64,000 bases of DNA from an uncultured Porphyromonadaceae bacterium. Its GTDB lineage: Bacteria; Bacteroidota; Bacteroidia; Bacteroidales; Muribaculaceae. Of this stretch, positions 13,859-38,733 are shown in pieces; within the stretch, counting starts at the first letter, position 1; each line of letters begins with the position of its first letter. The notes under the pieces are model-generated. The model saw only the letters and a list, made by a program, of their open reading frames with translations. It was not told the origin of the DNA and did no database searches. The stretch spans positions 96,835-160,834 of the forward strand of contig CAMWNP010000002.1 in the NCBI GenBank assembly GCA_947175645.1, given 5' to 3'. A program made the translations under genes and the position numbers.

Positions 13859-15280
13859 TTACTGGTAGTTAAAAACATTGTTTTTGGCTGTCTCCTCCTC
13901 TTTGGCTTCTTTCTCGGCCTGCTCATTAGAAATGCGCTCTTTTTCACGCTGTTTGTCGCGCACAAGGGGGTTAAGCTCTATAAATGTTTCATTACTCATG
14001 CCACCTGCATTTTTAGTCTTGACAGCATTGGAAATTGCTTCCTCAATATCCTCCCCAAACGGCTCTTGGTACTCATGTTGCACCAGTAACTGCTCAAGCT
14101 GGGCACGCATGGGAATATTGAGTACCTTGGAGAGTATGGCAATAATGAGGTTGGCAATGCGCATAAGATACTCATCGTGTGACTCTTTACGCATGGAGGC
14201 TTTAATGTCTGCCAACACCATCATTTGCTTGAGAGCCTTGGCTGATACGTTAGTAAGGCGGCTCATGCTCTCAAAATCAATATTGGGGGTAAAGGTTTCA
14301 CGAAATATGTGCCGTTCATTATCATCGCTCTCTTGCTTTTTAAGCTCGCTGGCGGTGTCGGGTGTGAGGTAGCGCAGCTCTCCCTTTTCGCCCAGCACAT
14401 AGAGCTTATTTTCGGTGTCCTTGTCGGGCAGAGAATTAACCACATCAACGGTGGCCACAAGAGCTGGGTCGGCCATGTAGTCGTTTACATCGGCTGTACG
14501 GCTCTTAACGTATTCCTGTCGCTCAATGAGGTGGTTGGCACCATCCCACTCTGTTTCCTGCTCAAGGAGTATTACAGGCTTTTTGCCACAGAAATTAACC
14601 TCTCGCTCCACCTGCCAGCCAAAATTTTTACGCTTGCAGTGGTATGTGTAGTTATCAGTGAAAACATCCACATAATAGGCTGTAGTATTGCCACGCTCAC
14701 GCATATAATACCCACGCGCAAAATACAGGAGGCGGTCTACATGGTCTTTTATGTAGTATAAATCATCGCCCAGCGATTTAGCCAGCACCTTTATAAGGCA
14801 GTCGGCTTTACCATCGCTATTTTGGTAGCAATGGAACAGCAGCGCACTCTTGGTCTCGGCACCAGCCAAACGCTTTGCCTGCCTAATGCGAGCGTTAAAA
14901 TGAGTGGTACGGATAAAGTCGGTAAATGCTTTGTACGCAGCATCTGTGTTTTGGCTACTCTGCACCCATTGCACAGGACGGCCATAAATAAACACAACGG
15001 CCATTTCGTTTATGTACTTGGCATAAGAGAGAGGAAGCCGCCAGCGTTTAACCCATCCCTTGAAATTGCCATCTTTATCATAAATAGGCTTATCCATGCG
15101 CTGCATTATGGGGTGCTGCTCCAAATTGTACTGCTTTAGAGCCTCAAGCTGCTTGGGGTTGTCGCAGGTCATAAGAGCAAGCGCATCGCCTATGTTGTGA
15201 GCCTCCAGCAGCTCCTCAAACGACTGCTGGTAGCCGACAGCCGTTTTTAATTTGCTTTGAACGTAATTAAAAAAACTCAT
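13859..15280 (-). CDS. Portal protein (473 aa)
   Basis: Size and position between the large terminase and MuF genes. Confidence 0.75.
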   Translation of the reverse strand: MSFFNYVQSKLKTAVGYQQSFEELLEAHNIGDALALMTCDNPKQLEALKQYNLEQHPIMQRMDKPIYDKDGNFKGWVKRWRLPLSYAKYINEMAVVFIYGRPVQWVQSSQNTDAAYKAFTDFIRTTHFNARIRQAKRLAGAETKSALLFHCYQNSDGKADCLIKVLAKSLGDDLYYIKDHVDRLLYFARGYYMRERGNTTAYYVDVFTDNYTYHCKRKNFGWQVEREVNFCGKKPVILLEQETEWDGANHLIERQEYVKSRTADVNDYMADPALVATVDVVNSLPDKDTENKLYVLGEKGELRYLTPDTASELKKQESDDNERHIFRETFTPNIDFESMSRLTNVSAKALKQMMVLADIKASMRKESHDEYLMRIANLIIAILSKVLNIPMRAQLEQLLVQHEYQEPFGEDIEEAISNAVKTKNAGGMSNETFIELNPLVRDKQREKERISNEQAEKEAKEEETAKNNVFNYQ

Positions 15281-15299: not shown

Positions 15300-16829
15300 C
15301 TACAATAAGCCTGCAAAGCTGCCTTTGGTTATGCCCTCGGGCAGCTCTCTCGGCGCAATAAGGAAATACTCAATGGCGTAGTAGAGCAAATCCACAAACT
15401 CATCATGTGTTTGTGTGGGGAACCCTGCAATCTCCTCCACAAAGTCCTCATTCCATTCGCCCTCTACCAGCACCACGCGGCCACACTCAACCTTTGGGCT
15501 ACAGGTACACAGGCGCACACCCTTGCTGTCTATTGGCGTGGGTGTCTTGGTAACATTGAGGTCAGTGCTAACCTTGAGCTGCTGCACCACACTTATGCCG
15601 TTGGCCTTGGGTTCTATGCGCAGTGTACTGGTGCGCTTGTTAAAGCCCCATGCCTTGCAGTATTCGGGCAGGAACGCAATGAGGTCGGGGAATGTTTTCC
15701 ACACCTTTTTGGCATGGAGTATGTAAAGCTGCTGGCCAATTTTGCAGGCGGCCAGTATGCCGCTGGGGTCATTATCGCCCTTGCGGTGTTTCTCATCAAA
15801 AGCAGTGTCAAGGAAGAAATGCACTGTGGCATTGCCACGCATGGCCTCAAACTGGGCACGGCTAATGTACTGGAACCACTTTTTCTGTATAATGTTACCC
15901 TCCTCGCTGGCAGGTCTCTGCTCATACTGGCCTGCATAACCTCGTGTGCCCAAATCAATGCGAGCCTCGGCCAATACCTCTGCATCAAGGCGCACAGGGT
16001 CAAGGAGGCCGTTAATGTATCGGTCGCGCAGCACCACTGGGGTTACGTTGGGGGAAAGCTCGGCAGGGAGGCAAATGTGCCTTATCTTGTCGGCTTTCTT
16101 TTTGAGCAGGTAGCCTGTTACATCCTCCTCATGGAGCCGCTGCATAATGGTTATGGTGGGGGTGTTCTTTTTGTTTACCTTTCGTGTGGAGAGCGTTTTG
16201 GTAAACTCCACTGCCTGCTGCCTCAATGGCTCACTCTCTGCCTGTTTAGGGTTTTGGGGGTCATCGTTTATTATGAGGTGGGCGTGTTTACCAGTAACAG
16301 CGGACCCTGTACTGGTTACATACCTATCTCCTCCAGCCGTGTTGCCATAAAAGCCCTTACCGCTCTTGTCCCTACGCATAACCACTTCGGGGAACAGCCG
16401 CCTGTATTTCTCGCTGGTAATAATATCCTTACTCTTGGAGGCGTGGTCAATGCTCACATCGCTGGAGTAGGAGCTGGAGATAATGCGCAGGCTTGCATCT
16501 TGAGTCCATAGCCATGCTGGGAACATAATGGTTACAATAGTGCTTTTGGTAGTTCCTGGCGGTATGTTGATAAGGAGGTCATAAGGTTTTGGCTGGCGGC
16601 CTACAATGTAGGTGGCCAGCTCTTGCAGCTCATCGCACAGGTACTTTATGTGCCAGTTAAATACTGGTTCTTCGGGTATAATAACAGCCCAAAAAGTTTC
16701 TACAAACCTGTAAAAACTTTTCCTGCACATGAGAGCCTGCACTTTATCCAGCAGCTCATCAGTAAGCTCTATGTTACTGGGCTTTTTTGTCACGTTTAGC
16801 AGCAATGGCGTAGAGGGTTGCCAGCTCAT
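15300..16829 (-). CDS. terL: Terminase large subunit (509 aa)
   Basis: Walker A-like PPGTTKST and Walker B-like HLIINDDP, with a C-terminal nuclease-like half. Its start overlaps the end of TerS. Confidence 0.85.
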   Translation of the reverse strand: MSWQPSTPLLLNVTKKPSNIELTDELLDKVQALMCRKSFYRFVETFWAVIIPEEPVFNWHIKYLCDELQELATYIVGRQPKPYDLLINIPPGTTKSTIVTIMFPAWLWTQDASLRIISSSYSSDVSIDHASKSKDIITSEKYRRLFPEVVMRRDKSGKGFYGNTAGGDRYVTSTGSAVTGKHAHLIINDDPQNPKQAESEPLRQQAVEFTKTLSTRKVNKKNTPTITIMQRLHEEDVTGYLLKKKADKIRHICLPAELSPNVTPVVLRDRYINGLLDPVRLDAEVLAEARIDLGTRGYAGQYEQRPASEEGNIIQKKWFQYISRAQFEAMRGNATVHFFLDTAFDEKHRKGDNDPSGILAACKIGQQLYILHAKKVWKTFPDLIAFLPEYCKAWGFNKRTSTLRIEPKANGISVVQQLKVSTDLNVTKTPTPIDSKGVRLCTCSPKVECGRVVLVEGEWNEDFVEEIAGFPTQTHDEFVDLLYYAIEYFLIAPRELPEGITKGSFAGLL

Positions 16830-17454
16830 CCTCTGTAAGCTCCTCTACGGTTATGGTGGTGTTGGTTGTTGGTGGGTTAAGAGGCTGGCCGTTGGCACCA
16901 GTAACCTCTTTGCGGTCGGGAGCATACAGCCCCAGCAGCTTTGCGCGGTACTCCAGCAGCTTGCGTATCTCGGAAATGTAGCCTACATGGCCGTAGTTGG
17001 TTACATTCTCGCGGCTCTGTATCTGCTTTATGTACGGGGAGGGTATTTTGCGCTTGCCCTTGAGCTGGCCATCCTCGCCCTCGGAGGCTGGCACCTCAAA
17101 ATGGCCGCGCTCTTGCCGCTGCCTTACCTGCTCAAAATCTGTCTTGGATTTCTCCCATGCCTCATACAGCTCTGCAATGAGCATATCGACACGCGCCACC
17201 TCAAGCTGCACCCACTCCTCGGTGTTTTGGTTGTTATCCTCTCTCCATTGCTGGAGCAGCAGCTTGAGGTCGCTGTGTATGGTAAATGTGCTTACCTTTT
17301 TGGGGAGCTGGAGGCGAGCCGTTACTGCCTCCGCTATTTGGCGCACACTCTTACCCTGTAGGCGTAGCTCGGACACGATTTGCAGGCGTGCCTCGCGTAT
17401 CTGCCTACGCTTTTGGGTAGAGCGTTTGTTTATTTCTGTTCCGTCTAATGGCAT
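16774..17454 (-). CDS. terS: Terminase small subunit (226 aa)
   Basis: N-terminal HTH-like LRLQGKSVRQIAEAV. It lies immediately upstream of TerL and overlaps it. Confidence 0.6.
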   Translation of the reverse strand: MPLDGTEINKRSTQKRRQIREARLQIVSELRLQGKSVRQIAEAVTARLQLPKKVSTFTIHSDLKLLLQQWREDNNQNTEEWVQLEVARVDMLIAELYEAWEKSKTDFEQVRQRQERGHFEVPASEGEDGQLKGKRKIPSPYIKQIQSRENVTNYGHVGYISEIRKLLEYRAKLLGLYAPDRKEVTGANGQPLNPPTTNTTITVEELTEDELATLYAIAAKRDKKAQ

Positions 17455-17467
17455 ATCCTGTGAGGGG

Positions 17468-17878
17468 TTAATGGTTAATAGCCTTAATGAGCTTGCGCAG
17501 GGGCTTGGCTAAATATGAGAGCAACCCCTGCCAGCGTATGCGCAAAAGCCTGTAGTGGGCAATAATGCTGTGTTCCTTGCTCTGCTCATTGGGCTGGGGG
17601 TTAAACCTTGAGAGGAGCGAAAGGAAATGCTGGTACTTATCGCCGTTGCAGCTTGCCAGCTCAATGTAAGTGCGGCCATGTTCGGGGAATGTATGCACGG
17701 CCAAATGGCTCTCTGCCAGCAACCACAGGCAAGTGTAGCCTTGAGGCTGGAAATGATGCTCTACAACCTCCAGCACGTTAAAGCCACACAGGGAGAGCAT
17801 GGTGTCAAACAGGTGGCGCAGGTCACTCGGTTGTGTCGTTGTTATCCATGCCGAATGCTGCCAAATCTTCGCTTGCAT
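17468..17878 (-). CDS. S-adenosylmethionine decarboxylase-like (class 1 SpeD/SpeH, pyruvoyl) protein (about 136 aa)
   Basis: HHFQPQGYTCLWLLAESHLAVHTFPEHGRTYIELASC matches the AdoMetDC core (xxESH(L/I)xIHTWPE...D.F.C), including the Glu-Ser self-cleavage site. The start was chosen at the ATG at 17878; an alternative ATG is at 17800. Confidence 0.7.
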   Translation of the reverse strand: MQAKIWQHSAWITTTQPSDLRHLFDTMLSLCGFNVLEVVEHHFQPQGYTCLWLLAESHLAVHTFPEHGRTYIELASCNGDKYQHFLSLLSRFNPQPNEQSKEHSIIAHYRLLRIRWQGLLSYLAKPLRKLIKAINH

Positions 17879-19259
17879 AAGTAATTTCGTTATAGGTTGT
17901 TGGTATGGCTTTAATATCGCCCTTGTAGAACACCAGCACATTTTGGTGGCACTTGCCCACCTTACGGTTGCGCATATACCTCTGCACACGCTGGGGGAGT
18001 GTGCCTATAGGCTCCACAATAATGCACTCGTTATAGAGCGGCATACCATGAGCCTTAAACATTCGCTTTATATCGCCCACAAAGTCATAATAGTAGCCCT
18101 CTTTGTCGCGTATATCGCCCACCACAATTACAGCAAAGCGGTTTTGTTTGAGGCAGGTAATGGCATTGGCAAAGGCGTTTTCCAATATGCCCAAAAATGC
18201 CTCATAGGTGGGTTGGTTGCTCGCATCATTGGGCTTGTCGCTGTAAACCTCAAGGTCGTAGTACGGAGGGCAGCTAAAGAGCAAATCCTGTGAGCCAGCC
18301 GCAATGTGCTTGGCTACGTTCTGCCCATCATCGCAAATGTAGTGTGCGCTCATGCCCTCAACGCGCTCATTGTTGAGCCTTGCCTGCTCCTCGCGTAGCT
18401 CAATGCCTGTAAAGCTCATGCCCAGTGTGGCGGCCACATAGCCAAATACGGTATCGCCAGCAAAGCAATCAAAGGCCGCGCCTCCCTCCATACCAAACCA
18501 TCTGCAAACAATCTCGGCCATTACTGGGTCAAGCAGGCTAACACCGTTGTTGATGGTGGCCATGCAGTTTGTTTCGCCGTCTGCCAGCGTGCCCTCTCGG
18601 CTCTCGCCAAAGTCGGCGATGCGCTCACGCCACATGGCTTTGCGCTGCCTCCAGTAGCCCTGTCGGGTGTCAAGTATGGTAAACGGTGGTGCAATAAACT
18701 TGTCGGAGAGGCTGCCATGCTTGCCACTCTCGGAGCTGGAGCCAGCAGAGCCGTTGCCCTCGGCCTCGCCTCCATTGTCGGGCTGCCAGCAGTCAAGCCC
18801 CCACTCCTCAAGCTCCATCGGCTCCCACTCATTAGCGAGCATATCCCAATCCCATGCTCCATAAGAGAGGTTATCCTTAATGATAAACTCTCGCTTCTCC
18901 TCCTCGGAGAGCTGGGAGGCGTGCAGTATCTCCACCACTGGAGCCTTGAGCCACTTTGCCCAGTAGTTGCGCAGGTTCTCACGCTCCAGCTCGGTTTTTT
19001 GCGCATACCCATTGCATTTGCCCAGCATCATGTTTACCTCGGCAGGGCGCATTTTGGATATGGCAATGAGGGCACGGAGGCGCATATTGCCGCCCAGCAC
19101 AATATTGGCCTCATCTACAACCACAGGGCGCAGGTGCAGCATCTTGGGGAACATCAGCAGGCTCTTTTGGAGCTGTTCAAATTTATCCTGCTCAATGCCG
19201 CGTGGGTTCGCCTCATTGAGTATTATATCGGTTATTGGTACAAGGGGGCTTTTGGTCAT
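17823..19259 (-). CDS. ParB-like N-terminal domain fused to a DNA methyltransferase (478 aa)
   Basis: N-terminal ParB/Srx-like ITDIILNEANPRGI...LRPVVVDE...GGNMRLRA. SAM motif FDCFAGDTVFG and catalytic motif SCPPYYDL ((S/D)PPY type). Confidence 0.7.
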   Translation of the reverse strand: MTKSPLVPITDIILNEANPRGIEQDKFEQLQKSLLMFPKMLHLRPVVVDEANIVLGGNMRLRALIAISKMRPAEVNMMLGKCNGYAQKTELERENLRNYWAKWLKAPVVEILHASQLSEEEKREFIIKDNLSYGAWDWDMLANEWEPMELEEWGLDCWQPDNGGEAEGNGSAGSSSESGKHGSLSDKFIAPPFTILDTRQGYWRQRKAMWRERIADFGESREGTLADGETNCMATINNGVSLLDPVMAEIVCRWFGMEGGAAFDCFAGDTVFGYVAATLGMSFTGIELREEQARLNNERVEGMSAHYICDDGQNVAKHIAAGSQDLLFSCPPYYDLEVYSDKPNDASNQPTYEAFLGILENAFANAITCLKQNRFAVIVVGDIRDKEGYYYDFVGDIKRMFKAHGMPLYNECIIVEPIGTLPQRVQRYMRNRKVGKCHQNVLVFYKGDIKAIPTTYNEITYASEDLAAFGMDNNDTTE

Positions 19260-38507: not shown

Positions 38508-38511
38508 TTTG

Positions 38512-38583
38512 TACTCCCGAAGGGAATCGAACCCTTATCATTGGAACCGGAATCCAGTATTCTATCCATTGAACTACAGGAGC
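38512..38583 (-). tRNA. tRNA-Arg (anticodon CCG), 72 nt, no encoded CCA
   Basis: Cloverleaf folded by hand: acceptor stem of 7 bp (2 G-U), D arm GTTC/GAAT, anticodon loop TTCCGGT, T arm AAGGG-TTCGATT-CCCTT. Confidence 0.8.
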
Positions 38584-38733
38584 TTACGTTATTTTTGGTT
38601 TTGACAAACTCTTTTGCCAATTTTGCGCTTTGTTAAAAATGTGCTATATTTGCATATAAGCACCGGAAACTCCTGTTCTTACGAGTTTAACCCCCTATGG
38701 GCGAGAATTTTAGCTTACTGCGTCTTGCGCCAC

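What the first reader, a model, noticed from the sequence alone, without database searches (positions are those of the whole stretch)
17468..17878. Phage-encoded SAM-decarboxylase-like (pyruvoyl) enzyme overlapping the 3' end of a DNA methyltransferase gene
Seen:
- The ORF contains HHFQPQGYTCLWLLAESHLAVHTFPEHGRTYIELASC. This is a close match to the class 1 AdoMetDC core, including the Glu-Ser bond where self-cleavage generates the pyruvoyl cofactor.
- From the ATG at 17878 it overlaps the ParB-methyltransferase gene (stop at 17823) by 56 nt.
- It lies immediately upstream of the terminase genes.

Established knowledge: this family normally makes decarboxylated SAM for polyamine synthesis. Some phage and bacterial homologues have been reported to have switched substrate to arginine or ornithine.

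Inference: possible roles are polyamine supply for DNA packaging, lowering SAM to blunt host SAM-dependent restriction or defence, or feeding a DNA modification pathway with the adjacent methyltransferase.
Basis: partly seen in the sequence, partly recalled or inferred. Interest (0 to 1): 0.6.

Follow-up and report, generated by a model that had tools for sequence, protein, structure and literature searches.

The report
Phage SAM decarboxylase beside DNA methylase
A prophage of a gut-type Bacteroidota bacterium carries a small, intact S-adenosylmethionine decarboxylase gene that overlaps a DNA-methylase-type gene. The enzyme is of a known, already tested kind, but the host cannot use its product to make polyamines. 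The neighbour's changed cofactor pocket suggests that it uses decarboxylated SAM to modify phage DNA, a chemistry I could not find described.

Summary
Observation confirmed. Window 17468-17878 (-) encodes a 136-aa protein. Residues 1-94 are a complete class 1b pyruvoyl AdoMetDC core: PF02675 E 8e-17; Glu56-Ser57, His62, Cys77; best fold matches 2III and 1TLU. Its conserved MQAKIW start lies 56 nt inside the ParB-methyltransferase gene, just upstream of terS/terL in a 57.6-kb prophage.

The closest characterised relative is Croceibacter phage P2559S gp67 (57% identity, same gene order), a proven AdoMetDC. The gene's identity is therefore ordinary.

Its role is not. The host has no spermidine synthase. 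Neither do the 18 other genomes sampled from its family, and none of them has a speD. The host has speA and nspC, the carboxyspermidine route.

I collected 140 non-identical ParB-methyltransferases. A decarboxylase gene follows 70 of 71 with the cofactor loop FAG-D-x-x-F-G, and none of 69 with FAGGSVRG, FAGDTQKG or other loops. Two positions switch with it: Arg/Lys to Phe272 and Phe to Leu243. Only about five independent gains or losses underlie this, so it is suggestive, not proven.

Best reading: the enzyme makes decarboxylated SAM for its methylase-like partner, which modifies phage DNA, possibly by aminopropylation. Nucleoside mass spectrometry of P2559S or ZRG1 DNA would decide.

The parts
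17468..17878 (-). speD-like CDS, 136 aa (class 1b pyruvoyl S-adenosylmethionine decarboxylase proenzyme)
   Evidence: PF02675 E 8.4e-17. phrog_27309 E 1.4e-41, starting at this ATG. AF2 model pLDDT 87.8. Foldseek top hits 2III, 1TLU and 1VR7.
17597..17878 (-). Catalytic core, residues 1-94: b1, a1, b2, b3, b4, b5, a2
   Evidence: pLDDT 88-98. Only 2 amino-acid changes in 94 codons against L004, with 15 of 19 nucleotide differences at third positions. Matches the whole length of the ~92-aa short relatives.
17708..17713 (-). Glu56-Ser57, predicted self-cleavage site; Ser57 becomes the pyruvoyl group
   Evidence: Coordinates checked. Invariant in 84 sequences. Aligns with the ES of T. maritima and A. 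aeolicus AdoMetDC. S63 is the T. maritima equivalent (PMC10407285).
17693..17695 (-). His62, equivalent of T. maritima His68
   Evidence: PMC10407285.
17648..17650 (-). Cys77, equivalent of T. maritima Cys83, 20 residues after the Ser
   Evidence: Cys at +20 is kept in 68 of 70 decarboxylases that follow D..F-loop methyltransferases.
17471..17596 (-). C-terminal extension, residues 95-136; predicted as one long helix over 98-135; fast-evolving
   Evidence: Present only in the closest relatives, which are 131-148 aa. 21 amino-acid changes in 40 aligned codons against L004. Block-mean pLDDT 60-82. Absent from the active 106-aa P2559S protein.
17823..17878 (-). 56-nt overlap of the speD start with the 3' end of the methyltransferase gene, in different frames
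   Evidence: In relatives the overlap is 11-74 nt, or the genes abut.
17823..19259 (-). ParB-N / DNA-methyltransferase-like fusion, 478 aa; proposed user of decarboxylated SAM
   Evidence: PF01555 at 34.6 bits, cut-off 26.7. phrog_498 and ParB phrogs. PDB profile hits to ParB/Noc and to methylase TTHA0409, 2ZIE.
18438..18470 (-). Cofactor loop (motif I), residues 264-274, DCFAGDTVFGY, with Asp269 and Phe272
   Evidence: Coordinates. The loop type D..F co-occurs with a downstream speD in 70 of 71 cases. GSVRG, DTQKG and other loops: 0 of 69. Aligns to DPFAGTGTT of 2ZIE.
18519..18542 (-). VSLLDPVM, residues 240-247; Leu243 is the second position that tracks speD presence
   Evidence: Leu in 100% of the speD-linked enzymes. 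Phe in 100% of both the GSVRG and DTQKG classes.
18258..18275 (-). SCPPYY, motif IV (target-base pocket), residues 329-334
   Evidence: C330, P331, P332 and Y333 are invariant in speD-linked and unlinked enzymes alike.
16774..17454 (-). TerS-like gene, 226 aa; matches PHROG family phrog_645, which is labelled 'Rnase E'
   Evidence: Starts 13 nt after the speD stop and overlaps terL. phrog_645 E 5.5e-20. Same position in P2559S (gp68) and in ZRG1 (DUF1441 protein).
15300..16829 (-). Terminase large subunit
   Evidence: phrog_38 E 2.7e-92 and Terminase_6C.

Best explanation
**What it is.** The ORF encodes a bona fide class 1b pyruvoyl AdoMetDC. The 136-aa proenzyme should cleave itself between Glu56 and Ser57. 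Ser57 becomes the pyruvoyl cofactor, with His62 and Cys77 assisting. The enzyme then converts SAM to decarboxylated SAM (dcSAM). My odds for this step: about 0.85. It rests on sequence and fold here, and on an assay of a 57%-identical relative.

**What it is for.** It is translated together with the upstream ParB-methyltransferase-like protein, just before DNA packaging. I infer that the dcSAM is made for that partner and not for polyamines (odds about 0.6). The partner's cofactor pocket has lost the basic residue and gained Asp269, Phe272 and Leu243. It would therefore bind a SAM that lacks its carboxylate and use it to modify phage DNA at an exocyclic amine, held by the unchanged SCPPY pocket.

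**Which group is transferred is not known.** Aminopropyl transfer, with MTA as by-product, seems to me more likely than methyl transfer, because decarboxylation has no obvious point if only a methyl group is needed.

**The tail.** The C-terminal helix (residues 95-136) is a weakly constrained appendage and is not needed for catalysis.
For: **Identity**
- PF02675 scores 61.9 bits against a cut-off of 25.
- E56, S57, H62 and C77 are invariant in 84 homologues.
- The AF2 model has pLDDT 87.8. Its top Foldseek hits are the class 1b AdoMetDC structures 2III, 1TLU and 1VR7.
- Purifying selection acts on the core.
- It is 57% identical to P2559S gp67, which has the same gene order. That protein restored spermidine in E. 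coli BL21 delta-speD (PMC9992855).

**Not for polyamines**
- The host genome has no PF01564 match. A tblastn search with a Bacteroidota spermidine synthase also found nothing.
- None of 19 genomes of the host's family has a PF01564 match above the cut-off. None of the 30 relatives sampled has any AdoMetDC gene.
- The host has nspC at 466 bits and speA at 783 bits.
- Of 14 genomes that carry the phage-type pair, 8 have no PF01564 match.

**Coupling to the methyltransferase**
- The order ParB-MTase, speD, terS recurs in P2559S (Bacteroidota host), in Pseudomonas phage ZRG1 (Gammaproteobacteria host), in 15 GTDB loci and in about 60 IMG/VR contigs.
- Among 140 non-identical methyltransferase domains, 70 of 71 with the loop FAG-D-x-x-[F/M/L]-G have speD directly downstream. 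The count is 0 of 69 for FAGGSVRG (59), FAGDTQKG (6) and others.
- Only two columns track speD in both contrasts: F272 (Arg or Lys when speD is absent) and L243 (Phe when absent). F272 lies in the segment that aligns to motif I of the solved methylase 2ZIE.
- speD is the only neighbouring gene family exclusive to one class (70 v 0). Terminase types are shared by both classes.
- 68 of the 70 linked decarboxylases keep ES..H..PE and the Cys.

**Precedent.** Phage CmoA makes carboxy-SAM for the methyltransferase homologue CmoX (PMC12783734).
Against: - No biochemistry exists for this protein or for any D..F-loop methyltransferase.
- The co-occurrence rests on few independent events. On the methyltransferase tree there are about 6 changes of speD presence. 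The loop changes the same way in 4-5 independent pairs and never the opposite way, with sign-test p 0.06-0.125. Shared ancestry could explain much of the raw 70:0.
- Asp269 alone is not diagnostic. The FAGDTQKG class has it without speD.
- One D..F-loop enzyme (L152) has no speD beside it.
- That Asp269 is equivalent to the gatekeeper Asp of spermidine synthase is only my reading of the motifs. A profile-profile comparison gave no usable alignment.
- The protein scores below NCBIfam's equivalog cut-off, 50.8 v 75.65. The validated P2559S protein also does.
- In hosts that do have speE (possibly Croceibacter and Stutzerimonas), a polyamine role remains possible.
Confidence: 0.5

Rival explanations
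1. Auxiliary metabolic gene for polyamines. The phage AdoMetDC raises dcSAM so that a host spermidine synthase makes more spermidine for translation or for charge neutralisation during DNA packaging.
For: - This is the published reading of phage speD genes. The P2559S enzyme supports spermidine synthesis when E. coli speE is supplied (PMC9992855).
- The chromosomal members of this short subfamily sit directly downstream of a membrane-fused spermidine synthase in 56 of 80 GTDB loci.
- The gene lies next to the packaging genes.
Against: - The host has no spermidine synthase. No genome of its genus or family has one above the cut-off.
- The host has speA and nspC, the SAM-independent route.
- 8 of 14 genomes with the phage pair lack any PF01564 match.
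- This reading does not explain the strict linkage to one loop class of methyltransferase.
Confidence: 0.12
2. Counter-defence by cofactor manipulation. The enzyme lowers SAM or floods the cell with dcSAM, which disables SAM-dependent host systems (type I/III restriction, BREX). The phage methyltransferase's pocket changed only so that it keeps working under those conditions.
For: - There is a precedent for SAM destruction by phage SAM lyases (PMC7877911, listed; PMC12783734 discussion).
- The host has no sink for dcSAM, so it would accumulate.
- It would explain why methyltransferase and decarboxylase co-vary.
Against: - Losing the basic residue and gaining an Asp in the cofactor loop should weaken SAM binding, not preserve it.
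- The pyruvoyl decarboxylases of this fold that have been measured are slow, with kcat 0.008-0.9 per s for the Arg/Orn-active homologues. That is poor for depleting a pool.
- The gene sits in the late packaging operon and not among early genes.
- Some close relatives instead carry a MetK next to the methyltransferase (L112). That is the opposite of SAM depletion.
Confidence: 0.17
3. Neofunctionalised SpeD. The protein decarboxylates L-arginine or L-ornithine (SpeDA/SpeDC type) and feeds putrescine into the host's carboxyspermidine pathway.
For: - speD without speE in a genome is the criterion that led Li et al. to such enzymes (PMC10407285).
- The host could use extra putrescine through nspC.
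- The score is below the NCBIfam equivalog cut-off.
Against: - It is 57% identical, and nearly identical in the catalytic centre, to the validated AdoMetDC of P2559S.
- Both prolines of the central region are kept: P45 nearly invariant, P65 invariant. SpeDA proteins lose a Pro that is fully conserved in true AdoMetDCs.
- The host already has a canonical speA, unlike the genomes with anomalous SpeD.
- Strict linkage to a SAM-binding enzyme is unexplained.
Confidence: 0.07
4. A true AdoMetDC whose dcSAM goes to some other, unidentified acceptor (a small molecule, RNA or protein). Linkage to the methyltransferase would then be only inherited gene order.
For: There are few independent evolutionary events behind the correlation. 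One D..F-loop enzyme lacks speD.
Against: No other gene family is specific to speD-positive loci. The pocket residues change on loss of speD in a clade nested among speD-positive ones (DTQKG).
Confidence: 0.1

Closest known systems
Croceibacter phage P2559S gp67 (YP_006560687), a phage AdoMetDC assayed in Li et al., PNAS 2023 (PMC9992855)
   Same: 57% identity over residues 1-91. Same MxAKIW start inside the 3' end of a ParB-methyltransferase gene with the same FAGDTVFG loop. Followed by the same TerS-like gene. Same Ser, His and Cys.
   Different: P2559S gp67 is 106 aa and lacks the 42-residue helical tail. Its host is a marine flavobacterium, and I could not check whether that host has speE. 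The published paper treats the enzyme as polyamine metabolism; a search of its text for 'methyltransferase' found no occurrence.
Class 1b AdoMetDC of Thermotoga maritima (1TLU, 1VR7) and Aquifex aeolicus (2III)
   Same: Same fold, and same Glu-Ser, His(+5) and Cys(+20) arrangement.
   Different: 20-23% structural-alignment identity. The N-terminal strand is divergent: the Pfam match starts at profile position 16. In the model, a single long helix follows helix a2. From memory, the solved enzymes have further beta strands there; I did not check this.
Chromosomal speE-speD pairs of Cytophagales and Flavobacteriales (membrane-fused spermidine synthase followed by a ~100-aa SpeD)
   Same: Same short SpeD subfamily, 45-57% identity. 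These are the likely source of the phage gene.
   Different: There the upstream partner is a recognisable aminopropyltransferase that acts on polyamines. Here it is a ParB-fused DNA-methyltransferase-type enzyme, and no spermidine synthase exists in the genome.
Neofunctionalised SpeD homologues (SpeDA arginine and SpeDC ornithine decarboxylases; PMC10407285, PMC9992855)
   Same: A speD homologue in a genome without speE; phage-borne examples exist.
   Different: The central region matches the bona fide AdoMetDC pattern, and the nearest assayed relative is an AdoMetDC. The host has its own speA.
CmoA-CmoX of Synechococcus phage S-B43 (PMC12783734)
   Same: A phage enzyme that remakes SAM into a derivative is encoded beside a DNA-methyltransferase homologue. 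That homologue's pocket is adapted to the derivative and transfers a non-methyl group to DNA. ParB-domain proteins are frequent neighbours.
   Different: The derivative there is carboxy-SAM and the enzyme is a C5-cytosine methyltransferase homologue. Here the derivative would be decarboxylated SAM and the enzyme is an N6/N4-type (PF01555-like) one. Nothing here has been shown biochemically.
Spermidine synthase (SpeE, PF01564) with its partner SpeD
   Same: A Rossmann-fold SAM-family enzyme encoded next to AdoMetDC. It has an acidic residue in the glycine-rich cofactor loop that, from established knowledge of SpeE (GGGDG), excludes the carboxylate of SAM.
   Different: The methyltransferase has no PF01564 match. 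Profile comparison with SpeE gave no alignment. The target pocket is the (S)CPPY motif of DNA amino-methyltransferases.

Membership tests
Class 1b pyruvoyl AdoMetDC (SpeD/SpeH, PF02675) | Significant match to the family profile above the curated threshold | tested here: met
   PF02675 at 61.9 bits, cut-off 25, E 8.4e-17. phrog_27309 'S-adenosylmethionine decarboxylase' E 1.4e-41.
Class 1b pyruvoyl AdoMetDC (SpeD/SpeH, PF02675) | Glu-Ser self-processing site with His at +5 and Cys at +20 (T. maritima S63, H68, C83) | tested here: met
   E56-S57, H62 and C77. All are invariant in 84 homologues. They align to the solved enzymes. Roles are taken from PMC10407285.
Class 1b pyruvoyl AdoMetDC (SpeD/SpeH, PF02675) | Alpha/beta sandwich fold of the prokaryotic enzyme | tested here: met
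   AF2 pLDDT 87.8, with the core at 88-98. Foldseek top five hits are 2III, 1TLU, 1VR7 and 1TMI, E 1e-6 to 1e-4.
Class 1b pyruvoyl AdoMetDC (SpeD/SpeH, PF02675) | Autocatalytic cleavage and SAM decarboxylase activity | not testable with these tools
   Only indirect: the 57%-identical P2559S protein complements E. coli delta-speD.
Class 1b pyruvoyl AdoMetDC (SpeD/SpeH, PF02675) | Reaches NCBIfam equivalog TIGR03330 cut-off | tested here: not met
   50.8 bits v 75.65. The validated P2559S protein also fails at 63.3. ZRG1's passes at 86.1. The model was evidently not built on this short subfamily.
Class 1b pyruvoyl AdoMetDC (SpeD/SpeH, PF02675) | Obligatory partner spermidine synthase (speE) in the same genome | tested here: not met
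   No PF01564 match in the host. tblastn best E 0.08. None above the cut-off in 19 genomes of the family.
Neofunctionalised SpeD (SpeDA arginine / SpeDC ornithine decarboxylase) | speD homologue present without speE | tested here: met
Neofunctionalised SpeD (SpeDA arginine / SpeDC ornithine decarboxylase) | SpeDA: loss of the Pro that is fully conserved in true AdoMetDCs | tested here: not met
   Both central prolines are kept: P45 in FQPQG and P65 in HTFPE. P65 is invariant and P45 at least 90% conserved in 84 sequences. Criterion.
Neofunctionalised SpeD (SpeDA arginine / SpeDC ornithine decarboxylase) | SpeDC: four diagnostic residues (Gln, Thr, Phe, Tyr) in the central region | tested here: inconclusive
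   The positions are defined only in a figure that the library does not hold. The validated P2559S AdoMetDC has the same central residues as this protein.
Neofunctionalised SpeD (SpeDA arginine / SpeDC ornithine decarboxylase) | Genome lacks canonical ADC/ODC | tested here: not met
   The host has speA at 783 bits, cut-off 624.
N6-adenine/N4-cytosine DNA methyltransferase (PF01555), for the partner gene | Profile match above threshold and a (D/N/S)PPY-type motif IV | tested here: met
   PF01555 at 34.6 bits, cut-off 26.7. SCPPY is invariant. Profile hit to methylase 2ZIE, E 1.6e-13.
N6-adenine/N4-cytosine DNA methyltransferase (PF01555), for the partner gene | Canonical motif I cofactor loop (DPFxG[ST]GT[ST], or FAGGSVRG in this ParB-fused family) | tested here: not met
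   The window has DCFAGDTVFG. Asp replaces Gly/Ser/Thr, and Phe replaces Arg/Thr.
Aminopropyltransferase (SpeE-like), for the partner gene | PF01564 membership, or a profile alignment that places Asp269 on the GGGDG gatekeeper Asp | tested here: inconclusive
   No PF01564 hit. hhalign against 33 Bacteroidota SpeE domains gave only a spurious 17-column match, probability 2.4%. The equivalence is my motif-level reading only.

The most novel reading that the evidence does not exclude
The ParB-methyltransferase-like enzyme is a DNA aminopropyltransferase. It would use dcSAM made by the overlapping AdoMetDC to attach a 3-aminopropyl group to the exocyclic amine of adenine or cytosine in phage DNA shortly before packaging. 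The product would be a cationic hypermodified base that blocks restriction and partly neutralises DNA charge.

This would be a new DNA modification and the first use of decarboxylated SAM outside polyamine synthesis. It would be spread over phages of several bacterial phyla.
Probability: 0.33. Interest if true: 0.9.

Novelty: new variant of a known kind. Interest (0 to 1): 0.68.

Why it matters
On its own the gene is one more phage speD, a kind already catalogued and assayed. What matters is the context. It is the only AdoMetDC in a host lineage that has no enzyme known to consume dcSAM. It is also locked to a DNA-methyltransferase-type enzyme whose cofactor pocket changes with the presence of the decarboxylase.

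If the partner really uses dcSAM, phages would have a further way, besides carboxy-SAM (CmoA-CmoX), to re-tool SAM for DNA hypermodification. That bears on several things:
- how gut Bacteroidales phages escape restriction;
- how modified phage DNA reads in nanopore or PacBio data;
- possible new enzymes for labelling DNA.

The question is directly testable, because two cultured phages (P2559S, ZRG1) carry the same pair.

Tried and rejected
- **Nucleotide search.** Megablast of 8 kb around the gene against 50,697 phage records gave no match, so context had to come from protein-level searches.
- **Shorter start.** I considered the ATG at 17800, which would avoid the overlap. I rejected it because the PHROG profile and all relatives begin at MQAKIW.
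- **Frameshift fusion.** I considered that the overlap hides a programmed frameshift fusing methyltransferase and decarboxylase. I rejected it because the two genes merely abut, with no overlap, in six relatives with the same conserved ATG start.
- **The tail.** I considered that the C-terminal tail supplies the C-terminal part of longer, canonical-length enzymes, or is a separate function. The model shows one long helix of moderate confidence, and the tail evolves almost freely. I treat it as an appendage.
- **Asp269 as the SpeE gatekeeper.** I tried to show by profile-profile alignment that Asp269 equals the SpeE gatekeeper Asp. There was no usable alignment.
- **SpeDC residues.** I tried to test the SpeDC diagnostic residues, but they are defined only in a figure.
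- **Literature.** I searched for dcSAM-dependent DNA modification and for the gene pair and found nothing on it. An earlier scan note mentions a 2013 survey; I could not locate it. The P2559S genome note (PMC3421703) is not held.
- **Other neighbours.** I checked whether any other neighbouring gene family is specific to the speD-linked class. None is.
Full report
**Observation**

On the minus strand, ORF 17468..17989 contains the quoted peptide. From the ATG at 17878 it encodes 136 aa. That start lies 56 nt inside the ParB-methyltransferase ORF (17823..19259). The decarboxylase stop is followed after 13 nt by a TerS-like gene (16774..17454), then TerL (15300..16829) and the portal (13859..15280).

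The ATG at 17878 is the true start. PHROG family phrog_27309 aligns from exactly that residue (E 1.4e-41). The N-terminus MQAKIW is conserved in 20 of 21 aligned relatives and in phage loci whether the two genes overlap by 11-74 nt or merely abut.

**Identity**

- Pfam PF02675 (AdoMet_dc) matches at 61.9 bits against a cut-off of 25.
- Sequence search of the PDB finds the class 1b enzymes of Aquifex (2III, E 1.6e-10) and Thermotoga (1TLU, 1VR7).
- The residues needed for self-processing and catalysis in the Thermotoga enzyme are S63, H68 and C83 (PMC10407285). They correspond to S57, H62 and C77 here (coordinates checked). Together with E56 they are invariant in an 84-sequence alignment.
- An AlphaFold2 model built on that alignment has pLDDT 87.8. 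Its order of elements is b1, a1, b2, b3, Ser57, b4, b5, a2. Its five best Foldseek matches in the PDB are all class 1b AdoMetDC structures.
- Against an 81%-identical relative (L004), the first 94 codons show 19 nucleotide differences, 15 at third positions, and 2 amino-acid changes. The last 40 aligned codons show 21 amino-acid changes.

The functional unit is therefore residues 1-94, the same as the ~92-aa proteins that make up most of the subfamily. Residues 95-136 form a predicted long helix found only in the closest relatives, which are 131-148 aa.

**What is already known**

The nearest cultured-phage relative is Croceibacter phage P2559S gp67: 57% identity, and its alignment starts at residue 1. 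It has the same order of genes: methyltransferase-domain gene, overlapping decarboxylase, then a gene annotated 'Rnase E' in the TerS position. Li et al. (PNAS 2023, PMC9992855) expressed that protein in E. coli BL21 delta-speD with speE and recovered spermidine, so they call it a bona fide AdoMetDC.

The window's protein scores below NCBIfam's equivalog cut-off (50.8 v 75.65), but so does the validated P2559S protein at 63.3.

In GTDB genomes the subfamily has at least 264 members, mostly Bacteroidota. In 56 of the 80 loci fetched, the short SpeD lies just downstream of a ~513-aa membrane-fused spermidine synthase. This marks the subfamily as true AdoMetDCs and suggests where phages got the gene. 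On a poorly resolved tree, the phage-context proteins cluster apart from the chromosomal ones.

**Why the role is open**

- The window lies in a 3.17-Mb genome that is 99.9% complete. It has SusD-family genes, a Bacteroidota hallmark among the control genomes.
- Its only two PF02675 matches are the two copies of this prophage gene.
- It has no PF01564 (spermidine synthase) match in six frames. A tblastn search with a Bacteroidota fused spermidine synthase found nothing either (best E 0.08).
- Among 30 related genomes, none of the 18 from the same family has a PF01564 match above the cut-off, and none of the 30 has any AdoMetDC.
- The host has speA (783 bits) and nspC (466 bits). This is the arginine decarboxylase plus carboxyspermidine route, which needs no SAM.
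- Of 14 other genomes that carry the phage-type pair, 8 have no PF01564 match. The two strong matches are in MAGs labelled Bacillota, where the phage contig may be mis-binned.

So in this host the product, dcSAM, has no known consumer.

**The partner**

The same order (ParB-methyltransferase, overlapping decarboxylase, TerS, TerL) also occurs in Pseudomonas phage ZRG1, whose host is a gammaproteobacterium. There the methyltransferase is 41% and the decarboxylase 33% identical to the window's. More distant homologues of the methyltransferase in phiFL3A, HCTV-2 and Mae-JY30 have no decarboxylase.

Notes from earlier agents of this scan claim that the cofactor loop of the methyltransferase differs between the two situations. 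I treated this as a lead and tested it on data of my own. In a 10-sequence alignment, the seven linked enzymes have FD[CT]FAGD[TS][VI]FG and the three unlinked ones have DPFAGG[SP].R[GA].

I then made two scans of IMG/VR, one seeded with each class. I merged the results with the GTDB and GenBank loci, removed identical catalytic domains, and kept loci with at least 450 nt downstream. That left 140 enzymes:

| Cofactor loop | Decarboxylase ORF directly downstream |
|---|---|
| FAG-D-x-x-[F/M/L]-G | 70 of 71 (exception: L152) |
| FAGGSVRG | 0 of 59 |
| FAGDTQKG | 0 of 6 |
| other loops | 0 of 4 |

- Column by column, only two positions follow the decarboxylase in both contrasts. Residue 272 is Phe when the decarboxylase is present, and Arg or Lys when it is absent. 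Residue 243 is Leu when present and Phe when absent. Asp269 is shared with the unlinked DTQKG class, so it is not sufficient alone.
- The loop aligns to motif I (DPFAGTGTT) of the solved methylase TTHA0409 (2ZIE).
- The target-base motif SCPPY is invariant in all classes.
- No other neighbouring gene family is specific to either class, and terminase types are shared between them.
- 68 of the 70 linked decarboxylases keep ES..H..PE and the Cys.

**Limits of that test**

On the methyltransferase tree, presence of the decarboxylase changes about six times. In independent pairs the loop changes the same way 4-5 times and never the other way. Five pairs cannot reach p 0.05 (sign test 0.06-0.125), and the loop columns were part of the tree.

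That the changed residues touch the carboxylate of SAM is an inference from motif equivalence with other methyltransferases. I could not dock a ligand. A profile-profile comparison with spermidine synthase gave nothing. I found no paper describing a DNA-modifying enzyme that uses dcSAM, or this gene pair.

The closest published analogue is CmoA-CmoX. A phage carboxy-SAM synthase feeds a methyltransferase homologue in which a key Arg contacts the carboxy group of Cx-SAM (PMC12783734). ParB-fold proteins have also been shown to activate a phage DNA-modifying dioxygenase (PMC13229309).

**Conclusion**

- *Shown:* the gene is real, intact, under purifying selection, has the AdoMetDC fold and catalytic residues, and has a validated close relative.
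- *Shown:* the host lineage lacks the speD/speE pathway.
- *Shown as a correlation:* the decarboxylase is locked to one cofactor-loop class of ParB-methyltransferase.
- *Inferred:* the methyltransferase-like enzyme uses dcSAM, and the product is a DNA modification, possibly aminopropylation.

The rivals are polyamine supply, SAM/dcSAM-based counter-defence, an Arg/Orn decarboxylase, and an unknown other sink. They are weighed in their own sections. The gene is a new member of a known family; the module it belongs to looks like an undescribed variant use of that family.

Noticed in passing
window 1-38668 and 38662-64000 (contig C2 77859-135502 and 135496-193139): The prophage is present as a perfect head-to-tail tandem duplication. 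The period is 57,637 bp and the two copies are 100% identical. Host DNA flanks it on both sides. The second copy of the speD gene lies outside the window (C2 171939-172349). This is either a tandem double lysogen or an assembly of replicating concatemers; I cannot tell which.
   Followed up: partly
window 38662-38668 (junction core ACCGGAA) and 38511-38583 (-): The prophage sits inside the anticodon loop of a host tRNA-Arg(CCG) gene. Joining the two host flanks restores an intact tRNA-Arg(CCG) (ARAGORN). The repeated core is only the 7-nt loop sequence. The phage carries its own tRNA-Arg(CCG) gene about 80 nt from its right end, apparently replacing the gene it splits.
   Followed up: yes
window 17471-17596 (-): The 42-residue C-terminal extension of the decarboxylase is predicted as one long basic helix. 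It occurs only in the closest relatives and evolves nearly freely. Its purpose, if any, is unknown; docking to the methyltransferase is one possibility.
   Followed up: partly
L018-L083 (GTDB loci), e.g. L050 280-1821 and L031 6303-7343: In Cytophagales and Flavobacteriales the ~100-aa SpeD lies between a ~513-aa membrane-anchored spermidine synthase (56 of 80 loci) and, in two ORF clusters (22 and 18 loci), a K+ channel-type gene with a GYGD selectivity-filter motif (TVGYGD in one cluster). Upstream there are DUF350-like membrane genes. This is a conserved membrane-associated polyamine cluster.
   Followed up: no
L112 1461-2507 and 2495-4063: A close relative of the phage has a MetK-like SAM synthetase gene overlapping the start of a ParB-methyltransferase with the loop FAGDTQKG, and no decarboxylase. 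This is a different way of coupling SAM supply to the same enzyme family.
   Followed up: no
L137 3792-4049: A P2559S-like IMG/VR contig encodes a decarboxylase with an internal deletion that removes the ES..H..PE catalytic core. It is the only clearly broken copy among 70.
   Followed up: no
window 16774-17454 (-): The 226-aa protein in the TerS position matches phrog_645, whose label 'Rnase E' (also used for P2559S gp68) looks like a propagated misannotation. Position, size, and overlap with terL fit a small terminase subunit. ZRG1's counterpart in the same position is annotated DUF1441.
   Followed up: partly
L014 5902-6279: A phage-clade short SpeD stands alone in a bacterial chromosome. 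Upstream is a 553-aa ORF whose N-terminus looks like a signal peptide, and downstream a 557-aa ORF on the other strand; I ran no domain search on either. There is no methyltransferase or spermidine synthase nearby.
   Followed up: no
G036, G037, G039, G041 (same order as the host): Several genomes of other families in the host's order have 670-780-aa open frames with partial Spermine_synth matches (49-85 bits) but no AdoMetDC gene at all. These are aminopropyltransferase-like proteins without a dcSAM source.
   Followed up: no
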